A stretch of 21,770 nucleotides of DNA from a virus. Made by a program: the position numbers and the translations under genes. Every line of letters begins with the position of its first letter. Position 1 is the first letter of the stretch. Positions 1,236 through 9,302 of the stretch are shown piece after piece. The stretch is from UHGV virus genome UHGV-1845973. One strand, 5' to 3'. Below the pieces are notes generated by a model. The model saw only the letters and a list, made by a program, of their open reading frames with translations, was not told where the DNA came from and did no database searches.

Positions 1236-1520
1236 ATGAGCGCAATAGCCACCAGCGACACCCTTTGTTCTGGTCACGGAGGATTTCCGCCGCGACTGGT
1301 AGCTGAAACTGTTCCCTGGTTCACCGTTAACGGTAAGCCAATTGTTGTAGATGGTGCCATGTTTCCCAGTCACACTGACGGTAACAGTGCACATCCAGGG
1401 GCAGCTGTATCGACGCGAGTATGGTTTTCGATAGGTGGAAAGGGAGTTGTCTGTGTAGGCGATCCGCTTTCTTGTGGTTCTGTTATCGCCAACGGCGAGG
1501 ATATTTTTCAGGTTGCATAA
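1236..1520 (+). CDS. PAAR-domain protein (spike-tip sharpening protein)
   Basis: 94 aa. Contains the three PAAR-type motifs: SDTLCSGHGG, FTVNGKPIVVDG and VGDPLSCGSVIANGEDIF. Strong RBS AGGAGG 7 nt upstream of the ATG. Confidence 0.7.
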   Translation: MSAIATSDTLCSGHGGFPPRLVAETVPWFTVNGKPIVVDGAMFPSHTDGNSAHPGAAVSTRVWFSIGGKGVVCVGDPLSCGSVIANGEDIFQVA

Positions 1521-2326
1521 TGCTTGATTCAATAGGTGAAGTTAAAGCCTTCAAAATTCTGTCAGATGCCGGTATCTCTACACCAGAATCTATAACCATA
1601 AGCCGGGCAGCGTCTGTAAAAGCCTCATCACTCGCCAGCGCCATACAGGGAATAGTTCACGCCGATAAAACCTATCCTGATTCTGTTTCGGCCTGGACTA
1701 CTCAATTGCTTGGCTTTTCTGAACAGCTAAATGAGGCCAGCAAAGCGTCTTCATTACTGGCTGATTCTCTTTCCCCATACACCAAGCCATCAGAGCTGTT
1801 ACAGATGAAGATTGGCTGGGAATGCTACGTAAAAGGTAACGAGCTGACCCCCATACCTGCTTTCGCCCTTGTTGAGGGGATGGGGAATGTTTCCATTCCG
1901 CAATCTCTAACGGACGCATTGACGGCGCTAAAACTTGATGCTCTGAAAACCGCCATGAACGCCATTAACGCAAAAATAGAAGCTGCCGGAAGTGCTGGTG
2001 GTGGTGATAGCAATGGTGGACAGGGTGGTACTGGGGGCGCTCAGGCTCCAGTCATTACTCAGGATGAAATTGATGCTTTACGGGAAGCAGTGACAGCCGC
2101 CGAAGTTTTACTCTCCGAAATTAACTCAGCAAGTGAGAGTGTCGTAGCCCTTACAGGTCGCATTAAAACGTCAACCACTCAGGCAACCAAAGGTTTAGAA
2201 AACGCTGTCGCCATCACGTTAACTGGTTCTCTACTGGATGATGCAGTAATGAGTCCGGCAATCAGTTTAATCATGCCACAAGGCGTTATCGATGCGCTCC
2301 AAAAGAACACCAAAAAGGAACAATAG
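1520..2326 (+). CDS. Hypothetical protein, translationally coupled to the PAAR gene
   Basis: ATG at 1520 overlaps the PAAR stop (TAATG). 268 aa with a Gly-rich linker (AAGSAGGGDSNGGQGGTGGAQAP) separating an N-terminal ~160-aa part from a C-terminal ~90-aa part. No motif recognised. The ORF track start at 1421 overlaps the PAAR gene and is unlikely. Confidence 0.55.
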   Translation: MLDSIGEVKAFKILSDAGISTPESITISRAASVKASSLASAIQGIVHADKTYPDSVSAWTTQLLGFSEQLNEASKASSLLADSLSPYTKPSELLQMKIGWECYVKGNELTPIPAFALVEGMGNVSIPQSLTDALTALKLDALKTAMNAINAKIEAAGSAGGGDSNGGQGGTGGAQAPVITQDEIDALREAVTAAEVLLSEINSASESVVALTGRIKTSTTQATKGLENAVAITLTGSLLDDAVMSPAISLIMPQGVIDALQKNTKKEQ

Positions 2327-2381
2327 CAACACCACTTAGGAACACAAAAGGATGTGAATTGGTACATGTTTAACACCAAAA

Positions 2382-2855
2382 ATGAACCTGAAGAGGATGG
2401 TTTTGAAAAAGATAATTTTGATTGTAATTGCGCTTTTAGCCATTTCTGGAATTTACCGAACAACGACGGCAGTTATCGAACACATCAGGTATGTCCGATC
2501 GCTTGAAGACTCAAAATCACAACTGGAAAGCACGAACAACACGCTTTCTACCGCATTACAGTTAAGTGAGAACGCTCGCTCAGCCATGCTGACCGAAAAC
2601 GAAAGAATTAAAGCACTGGAAAAGGAGTACCAGCGCAAAACAGCAGAACTGAATGCCAACCTAATCAAACAACGAGAGGAAAGCCAGAATGAAATCACTC
2701 GCCTTGAAAATGCGTTACGCCGTGCTGGGATTAACGATGTGCGTGTGCCTGATGACGTTATCAGGATGCAGCGGGAACGGGCAAAAGCCATCAACCAGCG
2801 TGCCAGTGAAAATTACCGTAGAAGCCACCAGCAAGCCGCAGGCAAATCTGATTGA
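2382..2855 (+). CDS. Rz-like i-spanin (type II inner-membrane protein with coiled-coil periplasmic domain)
   Basis: N-terminal basic stretch followed by one hydrophobic TM segment (IILIVIALLAISGIY), then a long charged helical region rich in E/R/K/Q/L. A lipoprotein gene is embedded in the +1 frame, which is the spanin hallmark. The alternative start at 2397 is not excluded. Confidence 0.6.
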   Translation: MNLKRMVLKKIILIVIALLAISGIYRTTTAVIEHIRYVRSLEDSKSQLESTNNTLSTALQLSENARSAMLTENERIKALEKEYQRKTAELNANLIKQREESQNEITRLENALRRAGINDVRVPDDVIRMQRERAKAINQRASENYRRSHQQAAGKSD

Positions 2856-3021
2856 TTACTCCCCTTGTTTAGTGCCAGAGGACACGCCAGTGCTGTTAAA
2901 CAAGTATCCGACATACGCTGAACAGTTATTCAGCACGATCGACGAATGCAACCAACGAAACGCACTGAATAACCAAAAAAACAGGGAGATTTGGGAAGGG
3001 AAGGGGGATCAAGGCTCCTGA
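2689..3021 (+). CDS. Rz1-like o-spanin (outer-membrane lipoprotein), starts inside the Rz gene in another frame
   Basis: Signal peptide with lipobox: MKSLALKMRYAVLGLTMCVCLMTLSG|C. Mature part is Pro/Thr/Ser-rich. RBS GAGAGGA 8 nt upstream of the ATG. It begins within Rz and extends 166 nt beyond the Rz stop. Confidence 0.55.
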   Translation: MKSLALKMRYAVLGLTMCVCLMTLSGCSGNGQKPSTSVPVKITVEATSKPQANLIDYSPCLVPEDTPVLLNKYPTYAEQLFSTIDECNQRNALNNQKNREIWEGKGDQGS

Positions 3022-3467
3022 AGCCAGATGTCCTGGCTGTCAGCTTCTTCGAAACCGTGACAGACGTTAAAGTCACTCAAGCGATACTGACGCTGACGGC
3101 CTCTATTTCGCTCATGCCAATGCATGTATCCACCAGCAAATGCCAGCGGACAATCACTATAGTCTATGTAACCAATACCATTCCCCAAACGTGCTTCGCG
3201 CGCACCGGCTTTCCAGGACAGTAGAAAAGAGTCACGATCCGCCAGCATAACAACAAAATCGTCCGGATCTCCGATACAGTGAAGAATACCTGCCTTACAT
3301 AACTGCTTGAGCGCTTTGGGCTGGCTCAGGATGTCTTCTCCGTAATACTGAAAACAATCATCAACAACAGCGGGATAGCCTGCCGGGGGATTCAGGCTGG
3401 TTGGTATAGCTGACGCGATCGCCAGCATTAAGCGATATTGTGTTTTTGATGGGTTAACGTGACTCAT
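3009..3467 (-). CDS. Hypothetical protein (downstream gene of an unknown two-gene module)
   Basis: 152-aa ORF with ATG start, 16 nt after the stop of the upstream ORF on the same strand. Its 3-prime end overlaps the convergent Rz1 end by 13 nt. No motif recognised with confidence. Confidence 0.5.
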   Translation of the reverse strand: MSHVNPSKTQYRLMLAIASAIPTSLNPPAGYPAVVDDCFQYYGEDILSQPKALKQLCKAGILHCIGDPDDFVVMLADRDSFLLSWKAGAREARLGNGIGYIDYSDCPLAFAGGYMHWHERNRGRQRQYRLSDFNVCHGFEEADSQDIWLQEP

Positions 3468-3483
3468 TTTGTCCCTTGTTTAC

Positions 3484-3918
3484 TCATTGTCGCCATGCAT
3501 TTTTTAACTCAGGAATATCTGCCATTTCAATTAACTTGCGAAGTCCAGCACTGACTTTCCCATTGCCAACCATAGCAAGCCAATCTCTTACAGCTTTCGG
3601 CATGTAGAGCGTTGCAGTTACCGGCTCTTCAACCCTGGCAGGACATCCGCATACAGGCCATTTAATTGACTCCATAACTTCGGATGCCGGGGTGAGGGCG
3701 GGGACATTGAGTATATCTCTACCAGAAAACTGGATAACGATCCGTTCAGCGAGCGAGAGTATCTCACTTTCGGCAAGAATTGATGCCAACTGCGCCTCAA
3801 CAAGAAAGCGACTTGTTGTGTTCAGAGAGTGGCTCTTAGCGCCATTTTTATACGAAACAAAGATTCGATACGCCATAACTCTAATGATTTGTGTTAGAAA
3901 ACTAAAATTAAACCACAT
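3484..3918 (-). CDS. Hypothetical protein with a C-terminal segment resembling a ribbon-helix-helix DNA-binding motif (upstream gene of the module)
   Basis: ORF open from ATG 3918; an alternative ATG at 3876 would give MAYRIFVSY... (131 aa). C-terminal segment TATLYMPKAVRDWLAMVGNGKVSAGLRKLIEMA fits a beta-strand/helix/G-x-G turn/helix pattern. Neither start has a convincing RBS. Confidence 0.5.
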   Translation of the reverse strand: MWFNFSFLTQIIRVMAYRIFVSYKNGAKSHSLNTTSRFLVEAQLASILAESEILSLAERIVIQFSGRDILNVPALTPASEVMESIKWPVCGCPARVEEPVTATLYMPKAVRDWLAMVGNGKVSAGLRKLIEMADIPELKNAWRQ

Positions 3919-4034
3919 AACAACATGTGTGTTAATAGATTTTATTTTACTAAACCTATTGACTAAATCACAAAGTAGGTATTGTTAGTCCGTCAAAAGA
4001 ACCTTCACGCCGCGCCCGAATTTAGGGCTTAACC

Positions 4035-5732
4035 GTGAATAAAAACATTCAGCCAGCTCGTGATCGCGAGCGCGAGATTATGAATCGGGCGGCAAGCGTC
4101 ATGGCTATGACCGTCGATCCGACCACCGATGCAGCAGGCAACATGATTGCTGACCAGGCAGTAATGATGGAAAACCTGGATAAAGCAATCCAGAAAGTGC
4201 CTATGTTTGAAGGCGTAAATCCAGAGGTCGCTCGTCAGATCACTGGTGGGTGGGCTATGTCTCTGCATGAGTATAAACGTCAACATGGTCATTACCCGGC
4301 AAGTGACATCCTGGCGAACGCACACATGGCTCTTGAACGCCTAATGACTGAATGTGCCAGTGATACCCACGAAGGCACGGGTAAGGCAATGTTTGAGTCT
4401 GTCGCGCAATCAATGCGTAGCTCTGACGGCGTAATGAAAGTTGCTCAATATGCTGCTCTAATTCTGCCTGCCTCTCTGGGCGCTGCTACCAGTGATGCCT
4501 GTACTTTTGTTCCTTGTGATCGTGACGAGTCAAATATTTATGAACTGGTCAACGTAGCAGGCACAAAATTCGGCACCTTCAAACAAGGTGACGAACTGAA
4601 TATGCAGTCAGCTGGTGTTTATTCTCAAATGAAGCGCCTGTATACCCTTTCCACTAAAGGGGATGGCAGCACCAAAACCTTCCAGTTCGACATCCAAAAT
4701 TTTGAGGGACAATCCTGCCCGCTTCGCGCTGGTTATAGCAAACTGCTGATCAACCGCAAACCGTCCAAAGTTGACGACGGCGATGGCAACCTTTATTTCA
4801 ATGCTAAAGACAGCAAAGGTAAAGCTTTCTCAGCGACTGCCAAAGTCGCCTATGACACTGGTGTCATTGACATTACATTTACCCAGGCTCCGCCAGAAGG
4901 TACTGAAATTGCTGTTCAGGTCGAAATTAACATCGAGCGCAATCCAAGCCTGATTCCTGTGATCAACCAGGCTATGCGTAAGTACGAAGTTCGTCCGTCC
5001 CAGTACGTAATTGCTTCCGAACACACGGTAATGTCCGCATCCGATTTAAGCCGTGAGCACGGCCTTGAATTAGCGGCACTTCAGTTCTCCGCGATGCGTA
5101 ACTGGATCTCCCATGAAACCGACATCATGCGTCTGCGCACCCTGGTATTCCATACCGTTTATGGTCGTGAATTTGATGTGGCTCTGCCGGAAGCTCAAAA
5201 CTATGAGTCCTGGGTCGGCCTCCTGCGTCACGTAGTAAACGCTCTGTCTCAAGAAATGGCAAATCGTACCCTGACAACGGGTATTCGTGGCGGCTTTGCT
5301 GGTGGTGACGCCGCGAACTTCCTGCGCTCTCTGCCTCCACAGCACTTCCAGATCGCACCAGGTTACGTTCAGTCGCCGTATGTACAGTACATCGGCACCC
5401 TGTTTGGCACGATTCGTATTTACGAAGTGCCGCAACCTGTCTGTGAGCAATTCCAGGCACAGGGATATGACTTCGGGCTGGATGACATCTTCTTCTATGG
5501 GCGTGGCGAAGGCATCGGTAAAGCCGGTCTGATTGCTGGTGATGCAGTCCCAGCAATCCCTTACGTGCACGAAACCAATCCGTCTCTCGTTAACCGTACC
5601 ACTCTCTGGGGCAGTGCCATCAACGAAGTACATCCTCGCAACGGTGAAAACTACTTCACCCGCCTGCGTCTGACTCGCGCCAAAGAAGGTGCTATCGACA
5701 TGCTGACAGGCAAGGTTAACGAAAAAAAGTGA
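4035..5732 (+). CDS. Putative major capsid protein precursor (large head protein)
   Basis: 565-aa ORF with GTG start, the first gene of the long + strand structural operon, immediately upstream of an Ig-like protein gene and the sheath gene. The functional call rests on position and size only. Confidence 0.55.
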   Translation: MNKNIQPARDREREIMNRAASVMAMTVDPTTDAAGNMIADQAVMMENLDKAIQKVPMFEGVNPEVARQITGGWAMSLHEYKRQHGHYPASDILANAHMALERLMTECASDTHEGTGKAMFESVAQSMRSSDGVMKVAQYAALILPASLGAATSDACTFVPCDRDESNIYELVNVAGTKFGTFKQGDELNMQSAGVYSQMKRLYTLSTKGDGSTKTFQFDIQNFEGQSCPLRAGYSKLLINRKPSKVDDGDGNLYFNAKDSKGKAFSATAKVAYDTGVIDITFTQAPPEGTEIAVQVEINIERNPSLIPVINQAMRKYEVRPSQYVIASEHTVMSASDLSREHGLELAALQFSAMRNWISHETDIMRLRTLVFHTVYGREFDVALPEAQNYESWVGLLRHVVNALSQEMANRTLTTGIRGGFAGGDAANFLRSLPPQHFQIAPGYVQSPYVQYIGTLFGTIRIYEVPQPVCEQFQAQGYDFGLDDIFFYGRGEGIGKAGLIAGDAVPAIPYVHETNPSLVNRTTLWGSAINEVHPRNGENYFTRLRLTRAKEGAIDMLTGKVNEKK

Positions 5733-8711: not shown

Positions 8712-9302
8712 TTGATTTGCGGCGCGATAATGCCTGACGGAATAAGTCCGTTAATGAAGGTTTATATCCTCTCTTCAGAGGATATGGTCGTCGGTTATAT
8801 CGGTGAAGGATCTACCGCAGAACTGTCATCAATGTGGCAATCACCATTTGAAAACCAGTCAGTAGGAGGTTTGCTTGGTGGTATTAGCGCTGCGGCTGGC
8901 TCTCTTGCAGATACGCTTCAGACCGCAACCGGCGTAACAACAAAAACCCTCTTCAACTCAATGCTTGTTTGGGAAGGTCAGCAACCGCCTGAATTTAATC
9001 TGGTAATTGATTTCATGGCGACAACGAACGCGCAACTTGAAGTAAACGCAGCCATTACAGCATTGCTGAAGATGGAATCGCCGGAACTGAACAATGTAGC
9101 GCCATTCGGTCGTCGCCCGGAGACAGTAACGTTAAACATAGGTAGGAACATAGCCCTTACCGACGTTGTTATCAAAAGCGTGAGTTACCAACTGGACGCC
9201 CCACGCACACCGGAAGGCTATTTCACTCATAACACGGTAACCCTGCAATGCAGCGGAAACACCTCGATTAACCGTAGCAACATATCATCTGTTTTTGTGT
9301 AG
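8712..9302 (+). CDS. Hypothetical tail protein
   Basis: 196-aa ORF in the sheath-to-tape-measure interval. TTG start with GGGAG 9 nt upstream; internal ATGs at 8730 and 8754 are possible alternative starts. No motif recognised. Confidence 0.45.
   Translation: MICGAIMPDGISPLMKVYILSSEDMVVGYIGEGSTAELSSMWQSPFENQSVGGLLGGISAAAGSLADTLQTATGVTTKTLFNSMLVWEGQQPPEFNLVIDFMATTNAQLEVNAAITALLKMESPELNNVAPFGRRPETVTLNIGRNIALTDVVIKSVSYQLDAPRTPEGYFTHNTVTLQCSGNTSINRSNISSVFV

What the first reader, a model, noticed from the sequence alone, without database searches (positions are those of the whole stretch)
3009..3918. Unannotatable two-gene module on the - strand between the spanins and the capsid operon
Two tightly linked - strand ORFs (16-nt gap) are convergent with the spanin genes and divergent from the capsid operon. 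I recognise no family for either. The upstream protein ends with a segment that fits a ribbon-helix-helix style DNA-binding motif (YMPKAVRDWLAMVGNGKVSAGLRKLIEMA); the downstream protein is Cys/His/Trp-rich (CIGDPDD, YIDYSDCPLAFAGGYMHWHE). A DNA-binding protein followed by a small partner, sitting at the boundary between maintenance/accessory genes and late genes, is the typical layout of toxin-antitoxin, abortive-infection or immunity/regulatory modules carried as cargo by phage-plasmids.
Basis: inference. Interest (0 to 1): 0.6.

Follow-up and report, generated by a model that had tools for sequence, protein, structure and literature searches.

The report
Repressor-controlled early phage gene pair
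Two small genes of unknown function beside the capsid gene of a D6-like phage-plasmid are real and conserved, but they look like ordinary repressor-controlled early phage genes that only happen to be neighbours, not a toxin-antitoxin or defence cassette.

Summary
The window is a D6-like (P1-related) phage-plasmid. The two minus-strand ORFs are D6 orf53 (3009-3467, 152 aa) and orf52. The true orf52 start is 3876 (130 aa), not 3918. Both are real, conserved genes with no Pfam, NCBIfam, PADLOC or PDB match.

They are not an obligate pair. In Citrobacter, Pantoea and Vibrio-type relatives, orf52 sits alone, divergent from the capsid gene. The orf53 homolog lies elsewhere, after cre and usually before ref, 30 kb away in Citrobacter. 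About 10% of D6-like plasmids have orf53 cleanly replaced by an icd-antirepressor cassette while keeping orf52.

An 11-bp motif (TTTTCTAACAC) lies 15-25 nt upstream of the orf52 start. In D6 the same motif marks c1, lpa, ref and hrdC, plus a site between repL and icd. I read it as the D6 C1 operator, which makes this a prophage-silenced early operon. The neighbouring late promoter faces the capsid gene.

Orf52 is basic, with weak in-register support for a C-terminal ribbon-helix-helix. Orf53 is acidic, with a confident model (pLDDT 94) of a winged-helix-like domain plus a helical domain and no informative structural neighbour.

Toxin-antitoxin, abortive-infection and cargo readings are not supported. 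Biochemical function remains inferred. Interest is modest.

The parts
3009..3467 (-). orf53 (D6 orf53 homolog), 152 aa. Acidic protein with an N-terminal winged-helix-like domain and a C-terminal helical domain. H116, C136 and H137 are invariant.
3468..3483 (-). 16-nt spacer containing the AAGGGA ribosome-binding site for orf53. No terminator, so the two genes are probably co-transcribed.
   Evidence: Sequence. No terminator-like site here.
3484..3876 (-). orf52 (D6 orf52 homolog), 130 aa from ATG 3876. Basic protein with an N-terminal alpha/beta domain and a C-terminal beta-alpha-alpha (ribbon-helix-helix-like) segment at residues ~85-118.
   Evidence: PHROG 7830 matches residues 15-144 of the 144-aa reading. 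Homologs are 130-131 aa. AF2 model pLDDT 74. hhalign to RHH proteins is in register. Family pI 8-9.7 in six of seven aligned members; the exception (pI 4.76) is an N-terminally truncated 101-aa sequence.
3886..3908 (-). Putative C1 repressor operator. The core TTTTCTAACAC lies at 3901-3891, 15-25 nt upstream of the orf52 start codon.
   Evidence: Single exact hit in the window. 15 sites with <=1 mismatch in D6 against 2.3 expected. Thirteen of the 15 are intergenic, including sites upstream of c1, lpa, hrdC and ref, between repL and icd, and upstream of pdcB and orf117; two lie inside annotated genes (pmgM, simB). The core is invariant in five divergent relatives. P1 has annotated C1 operators at ref, mat and lpa.
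3944..3973 (-). Candidate sigma-70 promoter for orf52-orf53 (TTGTGA, 18-nt spacer, TAAAAT). Prediction only.
   Evidence: Consensus scan. An alternative -10 (TAGTTT, 3904-3899) overlaps the operator but is TGGTTT in D6.
3965..3985 (+). Late promoter of the capsid operon (AAATCACA box, 7-nt spacer, TATTGT). It faces away from orf52.
   Evidence: The same box lies 50-70 nt upstream of the D6 late genes prt, ddrB, R, pmgB, gene 7, gene 23 and orf16. Conserved in relatives.
2382..3021 (+). Context: overlapping i-spanin (2382-2855) and o-spanin candidate (2800-3021, lipobox LSGC), convergent with orf53.
   Evidence: PHROG 214 Rz-like spanin, E 7.6e-16. Lipobox read from the translation.

Best explanation
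The two ORFs are a short early transcription unit of a D6-type phage-plasmid. It is read leftward from the capsid/orf52 intergenic region and is kept silent in the plasmid prophage by the C1 repressor, through an operator placed just upstream of the orf52 start codon. It is expressed when C1 is inactivated, independently of the Lpa-type late promoter next door, which drives the capsid operon the other way. The unit joins two functionally independent genes. Orf52 is a basic protein whose most conserved part is a C-terminal ribbon-helix-helix-like segment. It is always encoded divergently from the capsid gene in D6-, Citrobacter- and Pantoea-type elements. It most likely acts as a dimeric DNA-binding regulator on that intergenic region, on its own promoter and/or the capsid late promoter. 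Orf53 is an acidic winged-helix-like plus helical protein. In most relatives it is an early gene downstream of cre, usually in the stretch leading to ref. It most likely binds a protein partner (host or phage) rather than DNA. Shown here: the genes are real and conserved, the two genes are unlinked in relatives, the motif distribution is as described, and the fold predictions exist. Inferred: C1 binding, timing of expression, DNA binding by Orf52, and the partner of Orf53.
For: Identity and conservation. The slot is the same in divergent D6-lineage elements. Independence of the two genes: orf53 homologs lie after cre (before ref in most loci) without orf52 in 14 of 15 IMG/VR loci. In a Citrobacter plasmid the two genes are 30 kb apart. 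Pantoea shows the same separation, with orf53 after cre and before HTH-dut-umuDC. Vibrio phage douglas has only an orf53 homolog. About 12 D6-like plasmids keep orf52 but carry icd-antirepressor in place of orf53. Operator: TTTTCTAACAC occurs 15 times in D6 against 2.3 expected. Thirteen sites are intergenic, at c1, lpa, hrdC, ref, between repL and icd, and upstream of pdcB and orf117. One site is at orf52 and is invariant in relatives. P1 has C1 operators at ref, mat and lpa, and D6 C1 is annotated as a P1 C1 homolog. No late-promoter box faces orf52. Orf52 is basic, has helices 94-103 and 108-118 after a conserved PVxxxxYxP strand, and aligns in register with RHH proteins, beating 200 of 200 shuffles. 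Orf53 has a confident model with a winged-helix-like N-domain, is uniformly acidic, and is the most conserved protein of the region between D6 and a distant relative (83.6% against capsid 80.6% and orf52 44.5%).
Against: Nothing here is experimental. The operator assignment rests on motif distribution and analogy to P1. The motif was defined post hoc from the same genome, and it does not match the P1 operator consensus beyond a shared TCTAA core. Two of the 15 D6 sites lie inside annotated genes (pmgM, simB). The orf52 promoter is poorly defined: the distal prediction scores 9 of 12, and the -10 overlapping the operator is degenerate in D6. No Pfam RHH model matches Orf52 even at E = 10. The AF2 monomer leaves the putative strand disordered. 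No conserved candidate Orf52 binding site was found in the intergenic region apart from the C1-type motif and the late promoter. The role of Orf53 is only a guess from its charge and fold.
Confidence: 0.55

Rival explanations
1. One reading: a type II toxin-antitoxin, abortive-infection or defence pair. Orf52 is the DNA-binding antitoxin or regulator, and Orf53 is the toxin or effector, carried as cargo.
Against: Orf53 homologs occur without any Orf52 homolog in most lineages, and their upstream neighbours are unrelated to each other. Both genes exist 30 kb apart on one Citrobacter plasmid. There is no hit to any toxin, antitoxin or defence model. The family is confined to P1/D6-like phage-plasmids and a few vibriophages: 23 clusters among 1.84 billion representatives, unlike the promiscuous distribution of toxin-antitoxin or defence genes. 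The RHH-like element is C-terminal, whereas in RHH antitoxins it is N-terminal. A C1-type operator implies silence in the prophage. GC content is not anomalous. D6 already carries phd-doc and relE-higA.
Confidence: 0.06
2. Orf53 is a lysis-lysogeny switch factor, for example an antirepressor or C1 inactivator analogous in role (not sequence) to P1 Coi or Ant. It is made from a C1-controlled promoter and feeds back on immunity. Orf52 is an accessory regulator.
For: The putative C1 operator. In relatives orf53 sits just beyond c1 and cre, the position occupied in P1 by c8 ('establishment of lysogeny'). In about 12 D6-like plasmids orf53 is replaced, with exact gene boundaries, by an operator-icd-antirepressor cassette, which hints at exchange of functional analogs. 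Orf53 is acidic and therefore suited to binding a basic DNA-binding protein. The D6 annotation lists no coi.
Against: There is no sequence or profile similarity to P1 C8 or to any antirepressor family. Cassette replacement is also expected from plain mosaicism. Vibrio phage douglas, which is not P1-like, carries a homolog among replication and recombination genes.
Confidence: 0.15
3. Orf53 (and perhaps Orf52) is an early host-takeover or counter-defence protein that inhibits a conserved host component such as RecA or recombination proteins, RNA polymerase or the ribosome.
Against: The structural matches are near noise. RMF is not recovered by Pfam, by PDB profile search or by hhalign. P1 and P7 lack the gene, and about 10% of D6-like plasmids have lost it, so it is dispensable. 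No anti-defence family matches.
Confidence: 0.15
4. The genes are late or morphogenetic accessory genes belonging to the neighbouring capsid or lysis modules.
For: They sit between the spanins and the capsid gene. Orf52 is always next to the capsid gene.
Against: They are on the opposite strand to both neighbouring modules. No AAATCACA late-promoter box faces them. Orf53 homologs map to early regions elsewhere. There is no PHROG structural annotation.
Confidence: 0.03

Closest known systems
C1-controlled early operons of phage P1 (ref, lpa, ban, kilA-repL, c4-icd-ant)
   Same: There is a short asymmetric operator next to the promoter or start codon. The same motif recurs at c1, lpa, ref and hrdC, and between repL and icd, in D6. 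The P1 record annotates C1 operators at ref, mat and lpa. The repressor is a P1 C1 homolog.
   Different: The operator sequence differs: TTTTCTAACAC against the P1 consensus ATTGCTCTAATAAATTT, with only the TCTAA core shared. P1 has no orf52 or orf53 homolog. Binding was not tested.
Ribbon-helix-helix regulators (Arc, Mnt, CopG, ParG, omega, NikR N-domain)
   Same: The Orf52 C-terminus shows a strand-helix-turn-helix pattern with a Gly-rich turn followed by Ser. Its alignment to these proteins is in register and beats shuffled controls. The protein is basic.
   Different: No Pfam RHH model matches. Helix A is about 3 residues shorter. The motif lies at the C-terminus, behind a 70-residue alpha/beta domain of unknown fold.
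Type II toxin-antitoxin modules with RHH antitoxins (ParDE, CcdAB, RelBE types)
   Same: Two small adjacent co-oriented genes, with the first plausibly DNA-binding.
   Different: The genes are not genetically linked across relatives. The second protein matches no toxin family. The RHH position is reversed. Expression is predicted to be silenced in the prophage.
P1 immunity accessory genes (coi, c8, and ant/icd of immI)
   Same: Orf53 homologs occupy the position just beyond c1 and cre, as c8 does in P1. Orf53 is exchanged for an icd-ant cassette in some D6-like plasmids.
   Different: There is no detectable sequence similarity. The function is untested.
Winged-helix proteins (MarR/SarA/ArsR, Cdc6/ORC WH) and ribosome modulation factor

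Membership tests
Type II toxin-antitoxin module | The two genes are co-inherited as an adjacent pair across homologs | tested here: not met
   Orf53 homologs lack an adjacent Orf52 homolog in 14 of 15 IMG/VR loci and in Citrobacter, Pantoea and Vibrio phage douglas. Orf52 stands alone in Pantoea and in about 12 D6-like plasmids.
Type II toxin-antitoxin module | The toxin belongs to a recognised toxin superfamily | tested here: not met
Type II toxin-antitoxin module | The toxin arrests growth and the cognate antitoxin neutralises it | not testable with these tools
   Requires expression experiments.
Anti-phage defence system (PADLOC catalogue) | A match to a known or candidate defence protein model | tested here: not met
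   0 families for either protein at E <= 1.
Phage-plasmid cargo in a variable hotspot | The content of the slot varies among otherwise syntenic relatives | tested here: inconclusive
   Orf52 is present in all 121 Escherichia, Salmonella and Shigella D6-like plasmids. Orf53 is present in 109 of them and is replaced by an icd-antirepressor cassette in about 12. Divergent lineage members keep both genes.
Ribbon-helix-helix (MetJ/Arc/CopG) superfamily (Orf52 C-terminus) | A beta-alpha-alpha sequence pattern alignable to known RHH proteins | tested here: inconclusive
   hhalign is in register, with score 15.1 against 7.85 +/- 1.58 and 0 of 200 shuffles as high. However, hhalign probability is 7.6% and no Pfam RHH hit appears at E <= 10.
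Ribbon-helix-helix (MetJ/Arc/CopG) superfamily (Orf52 C-terminus) | An intertwined dimer with a two-stranded antiparallel sheet that binds DNA | not testable with these tools
   Only a monomer model was possible. The putative strand (residues 85-92) has low confidence.
P1-type C1-repressed operon | A copy of the phage's repeated asymmetric operator at the promoter or leader | tested here: met
   TTTTCTAACAC lies at 3891-3901. It is one of 15 D6 sites against 2.3 expected. Thirteen are intergenic, including sites at c1, lpa, ref and hrdC and between repL and icd, and two lie inside genes. The core is invariant in relatives.
P1-type C1-repressed operon | C1 protein binds the site and represses transcription | not testable with these tools
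   Requires EMSA or footprinting and expression assays.
P1/D6 late (Lpa-dependent) operon | A late-promoter box upstream on the coding strand | tested here: not met
   The AAATCACA-N7-9-TAnnnT boxes in the intergenic region both face the capsid gene. None faces orf52.
Winged-helix DNA-binding regulators (Orf53 N-domain) | A winged-helix fold | tested here: inconclusive
Winged-helix DNA-binding regulators (Orf53 N-domain) | A basic DNA-contacting surface | tested here: not met
   Family pI is 4.8-6.2, net charge -2 to -11, and both halves are acidic.
Rmf/CrpP (ribosome modulation factor) family (Orf53 C-domain) | A match to the family profile or sequence | tested here: not met

The most novel reading that the evidence does not exclude
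Orf53 founds a previously undescribed family of acidic, repressor-controlled early proteins of P1/D6-type phage-plasmids, with a winged-helix-like plus helical fold and an invariant His/Cys/His cluster. It would act by binding and inactivating a protein. The target would be either the C1 immunity repressor (a new kind of antirepressor, interchangeable with the icd-ant cassette) or a conserved host factor. Orf52 would be a new two-domain RHH regulator tied to the capsid late promoter.
Probability: 0.15. Interest if true: 0.55.

Novelty: new member of a known kind. Interest (0 to 1): 0.3.

Why it matters
D6-like phage-plasmids are common in E. coli, Salmonella and Shigella: 121 complete plasmids in PLSDB carry this region. 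Most of their early genes are unannotated. This work shows that the pair is not a toxin-antitoxin or defence cassette, which prevents a mis-annotation. It also provides a working map of the regulatory signals: a candidate D6 C1 operator motif, a D6 late-promoter box, and a corrected orf52 start. Finally, it defines two small protein families, one with a confident but unmatched fold, whose distribution is restricted to P1/D6-type elements. That makes them reasonable targets for studying how these elements control the switch from plasmid to lytic growth. The matter is of specialist rather than general interest.

Tried and rejected
1. Family searches found nothing. Pfam, NCBIfam and PADLOC gave no hits on either protein, on 22 orf53 family members, or on C-terminal fragments of orf52. 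PDB sequence and profile searches gave only chance hits.
4. The idea that orf52 or orf53 is the late activator was rejected, because D6 has its own lpa homolog elsewhere.
5. The P1 C1 operator consensus ATTGCTCTAATAAATTT gave no match in the window at <=3 mismatches and only chance-level matches in D6 at <=4. The D6 motif had to be found de novo.
6. A palindromic P1-style -22 late box (AAGTGACTT in P1 LPmat) is not present upstream of the capsid gene. D6 uses an AAATCACA box instead.
7. P1 C8, which occupies the position between cre and ref, is not related to Orf53.
8. I looked for a conserved partner gene next to orf53 homologs. The neighbours fall into several unrelated families, including membrane proteins and PadR-like proteins.
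9. Rfam found nothing in 2900-4200.
10. The module shows no GC anomaly.
11. A literature search by accession numbers and locus tags found nothing relevant. The D6 genome paper and the P1 genome paper are not held.
Full report
**What the window is.** The region 2900-4050 is 100% identical to E. coli plasmid pB2C_96 (NZ_CP035876) and 98.3% identical to phage D6. D6 is a P1-related plasmid prophage. The D6 record shows the local order as parM/stbB, upfC (PAAR), upfB, orf55, orf54, then orf53 and orf52 on the other strand. After them come gene 23 (major capsid), 22 (sheath), 21 and so on. The finding's two ORFs are therefore D6 orf53 (window 3009-3467) and orf52 (window 3484-3876/3918).

**Checking the observation.** Both ORFs exist as described.
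- They are separated by 16 nt containing an AAGGGA ribosome-binding site.
- orf53 is convergent with an overlapped spanin pair, and their 3' ends overlap by 13 nt. The i-spanin matches PHROG 214, 'Rz-like spanin', at E 7.6e-16. The o-spanin candidate has an LSGC lipobox.
- orf52 is divergent from the capsid gene (GTG 4035).
- Both match PHROGs of unknown function almost end to end: 8101 at E 3.8e-97 and 7830 at E 1.1e-78.
- Both have homologs in about 140 complete plasmids.
- Neither matches Pfam, NCBIfam, PADLOC or any PDB sequence.

One correction is needed. The upstream gene starts at ATG 3876 (130 aa), not 3918 (144 aa).
- The PHROG profile begins at residue 15 of the long form.
- Homolog clusters are 130-131 aa.
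- The 42 nt in question carry 4-nt and 13-nt indels between relatives and hold a conserved regulatory motif.
- RefSeq's 144-aa call for this plasmid is probably too long.

**Is it a two-gene module?** Within the D6 lineage the pair keeps its slot. This holds in divergent members such as pEC361_3 (capsid 79% nucleotide identity), a Shigella dysenteriae plasmid, and the metagenomic contigs L008, L009 and L017.

Outside that lineage the two genes separate.
- A scan of IMG/VR with the orf53 family alignment returned 15 loci on contigs of 46-106 kb, most of them about 90 kb. In 14 of them the homolog lies downstream of cre, in most followed by (dut), ref, mat and genes 26, 25 and 7. No orf52 homolog is nearby, and the immediate neighbours belong to several unrelated families.
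- In Citrobacter portucalensis plasmid NZ_CP099368 both genes are present but 30 kb apart. The orf52 homolog (35% identity) is the first gene divergent from the capsid gene, and the orf53 homolog follows cre.
- Pantoea plasmids show the same separation. There orf52 is a single gene wedged between the capsid gene and convergent genes, and the orf53 homolog follows cre and precedes an HTH gene, dut and umuDC.
- Vibrio phage douglas 12A4 has only an orf53 homolog (34% identity), among rdgC and oligoribonuclease genes.
- tblastn finds orf52 in all 121 Escherichia, Salmonella and Shigella D6-like plasmids but finds orf53 in only 109.
- In pAPEC201603, window ~3008-3488 (orf53 plus the spacer) is cleanly replaced by an opposite-strand cassette, while orf52 is retained. 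The cassette holds an operator-like site, an icd-like gene, a 332-aa antirepressor and a hairpin terminator.

Each gene therefore exists without the other. They are two independent genes that are adjacent only in the D6 lineage.

**Regulatory anatomy.** I aligned the orf52/capsid intergenic region from five relatives. Three conserved blocks stand out.

The first block is TGTTAGAAAA on the plus strand, which reads TTTTCTAACA(C) on the orf52 strand at window 3891-3901. It lies 15-25 nt upstream of the orf52 ATG.
- Inspection of all D6 upstream regions and a genome scan show that this 11-mer, with an extended AT-rich consensus, occurs 15 times in D6 at <=1 mismatch. Markov simulations predict 2.3 (maximum 5 in 30 runs).
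- Thirteen of the 15 sites are intergenic. They lie upstream of c1, lpa, hrdC (two inverted copies), ref (two copies), pdcB, orf117 and pmgS/pmgR, and between repL and icd. Two lie inside annotated genes (pmgM, simB).
- In P1 the record annotates C1 operators at ref, mat and lpa. From my own knowledge of the P1 literature, C1 operators also control c1, coi, ban, kilA-repL and c4-icd-ant.
- D6 C1 is annotated as a P1 C1 homolog.
- The D6 motif shares only a TCTAA core with the P1 consensus, which itself finds nothing significant.

I therefore read the motif as the D6 C1 operator, and orf52-orf53 as a C1-repressed early unit. This is an inference from distribution, not a demonstration of binding.

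The second block is AAATCACA, a 7-nt spacer, then TATTGT (window 3965-3985, plus strand). The same box followed by a -10-like hexamer lies 50-70 nt upstream of the D6 late genes prt, ddrB, R, pmgB, gene 7, gene 23 and the orf16 hydrolase. This looks like the D6 late promoter element. It faces the capsid gene, and no such box faces orf52.

The third block is the capsid leader, discussed under items noticed in passing.

The sigma-70 promoter of orf52 itself is uncertain. A 9-of-12 match lies at 3973-3944. A -10-like hexamer overlapping the operator is degenerate in D6.

Pfam RHH models do not match it. However, hhalign of this block against a small alignment of Arc, Mnt, CopG, ParG, ParD, NikR and omega aligns strand, helix A, turn and helix B in register. 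The score is 15.1, against 7.85 +/- 1.58 for 200 column-shuffled controls, none of which reached it. I regard an RHH-type DNA-binding dimer as likely but unproven.

**The proteins: Orf53.** The family is small. A profile search of 1.84 billion representatives finds 23 proteins at E <= 1e-3, all of them 46-152 aa, except one spurious repetitive translation. It is uniformly acidic (pI 4.8-6.2). It is the best conserved protein of the region, at 83.6% identity between D6 and L017. With a 22-sequence alignment AF2 gives a confident model, with pLDDT 93.8 and pTM 0.89. The model has a helix/beta-hairpin N-domain, helices 78-93, 98-103 and 107-121, and short C-terminal strands.

**Explanation and rivals.**
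- Best supported (about 0.55 as a whole): this is a C1-silenced early operon that joins two independent genes. Orf52 is a probable RHH regulator anchored to the capsid-promoter region. Orf53 is a probable protein-binding early accessory factor.
- The toxin-antitoxin, abortive-infection or defence reading is poorly supported (about 0.06). The genes are unlinked. No toxin or defence model matches. The taxonomic range is narrow. The RHH sits at the wrong end. Expression is predicted to be silent in the prophage. GC content is unremarkable. D6 already has phd-doc and relE-higA.
- Two more specific readings of Orf53 remain open, each at about 0.15. One is an antirepressor or lysis-lysogeny factor, suggested by its position next to c1 and cre in relatives and by its exchange for an icd-ant cassette. 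The other is a host-takeover or counter-defence protein.
- A late or morphogenetic role is unlikely (about 0.03).

**Novelty and interest.** The ORFs are already annotated as hypothetical proteins in D6, and PHROGs exist for both. Nothing is published on their function as far as the held literature shows. What is new here:
- the two genes are shown to be unlinked in relatives;
- there are candidate D6 operator and late-promoter motifs;
- the orf52 start is corrected;
- Orf53 has a confident predicted fold without informative neighbours.

This is a new member of a known kind, namely repressor-controlled early genes of P1-type phages. It is of modest specialist interest.

Noticed in passing
window ~3008-3488, compared with L034 (NZ_CP127300.1) 2050-3680: In about 12 of 121 D6-like plasmids, orf53 plus its 16-nt spacer is replaced by a ~1.6-kb opposite-strand cassette, with breakpoints exactly at gene ends. 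The cassette holds an operator-like ATGTTAGAAAA, an icd-like gene (71 aa), a 332-aa antirepressor and a GC hairpin. It is the same module as D6 icd2/orf82. orf52 is kept and gains a 4-residue tail.
   Followed up: partly
window 3965-3985 (+), and D6 upstream regions: There is a candidate D6-type late promoter: an AAATCACA box, 7-9 nt, then a TAnnnT hexamer. It lies 50-70 nt upstream of prt, ddrB, R, pmgB, gene 7, gene 23 and the orf16 hydrolase. It differs from the 9-bp palindromic -22 box annotated in P1 (AAGTGACTT at LPmat).
   Followed up: partly
window 3992-4039 (+): The capsid-gene leader GTCAAAAGAACCTTCACGCCGCGCCCGAATTTAGGGCTTAACCGTG is almost invariant in five relatives whose coding regions differ by 20% or more. 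It folds into a hairpin (4004-4039, -13.6 kcal/mol, z -2.56) that encloses the SD-like AGGG and the GTG start codon. This suggests translational control of the major capsid protein. No covariation is available, and there is no Rfam match.
   Followed up: partly
window 3877-3918 (-): RefSeq annotates the upstream gene of this plasmid as 144 aa (WP_224465488.1). That extension runs across the conserved operator-like motif and is not supported by homologs. The 130-aa start used in the D6 GenBank record fits better.
   Followed up: yes
D6 genome (L001/L003/L004), 15 sites; window 3891-3901: The motif TTTTCTAACAC (extended form AWTTWRTTTTCTAACAYA) appears to define the D6 C1 regulon. Sites lie at c1, lpa, hrdC (inverted pair), ref (two), pdcB, orf117 and the pmgS/pmgR region, between repL and icd, and at orf52; two further sites lie inside pmgM and simB. 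The pmgS/pmgR-region sites and the two sites in the unannotated stretch at D6 8900-9085 are unexplained.
   Followed up: partly
window 1236-2326 (+): A PAAR-motif protein (upfC homolog, PHROG 281) and upfB lie directly upstream of the spanin pair on the same strand. This is an unusual neighbour for lysis genes. The arrangement is conserved in Pantoea and Citrobacter relatives.
   Followed up: no
L025 4561-4995 and L021 5464-5997: In several Vibrio-type relatives the gene immediately before or after the orf53 homolog encodes a PadR-like winged-helix regulator. In others it encodes a small membrane protein. No partner is consistent across lineages.
   Followed up: partly
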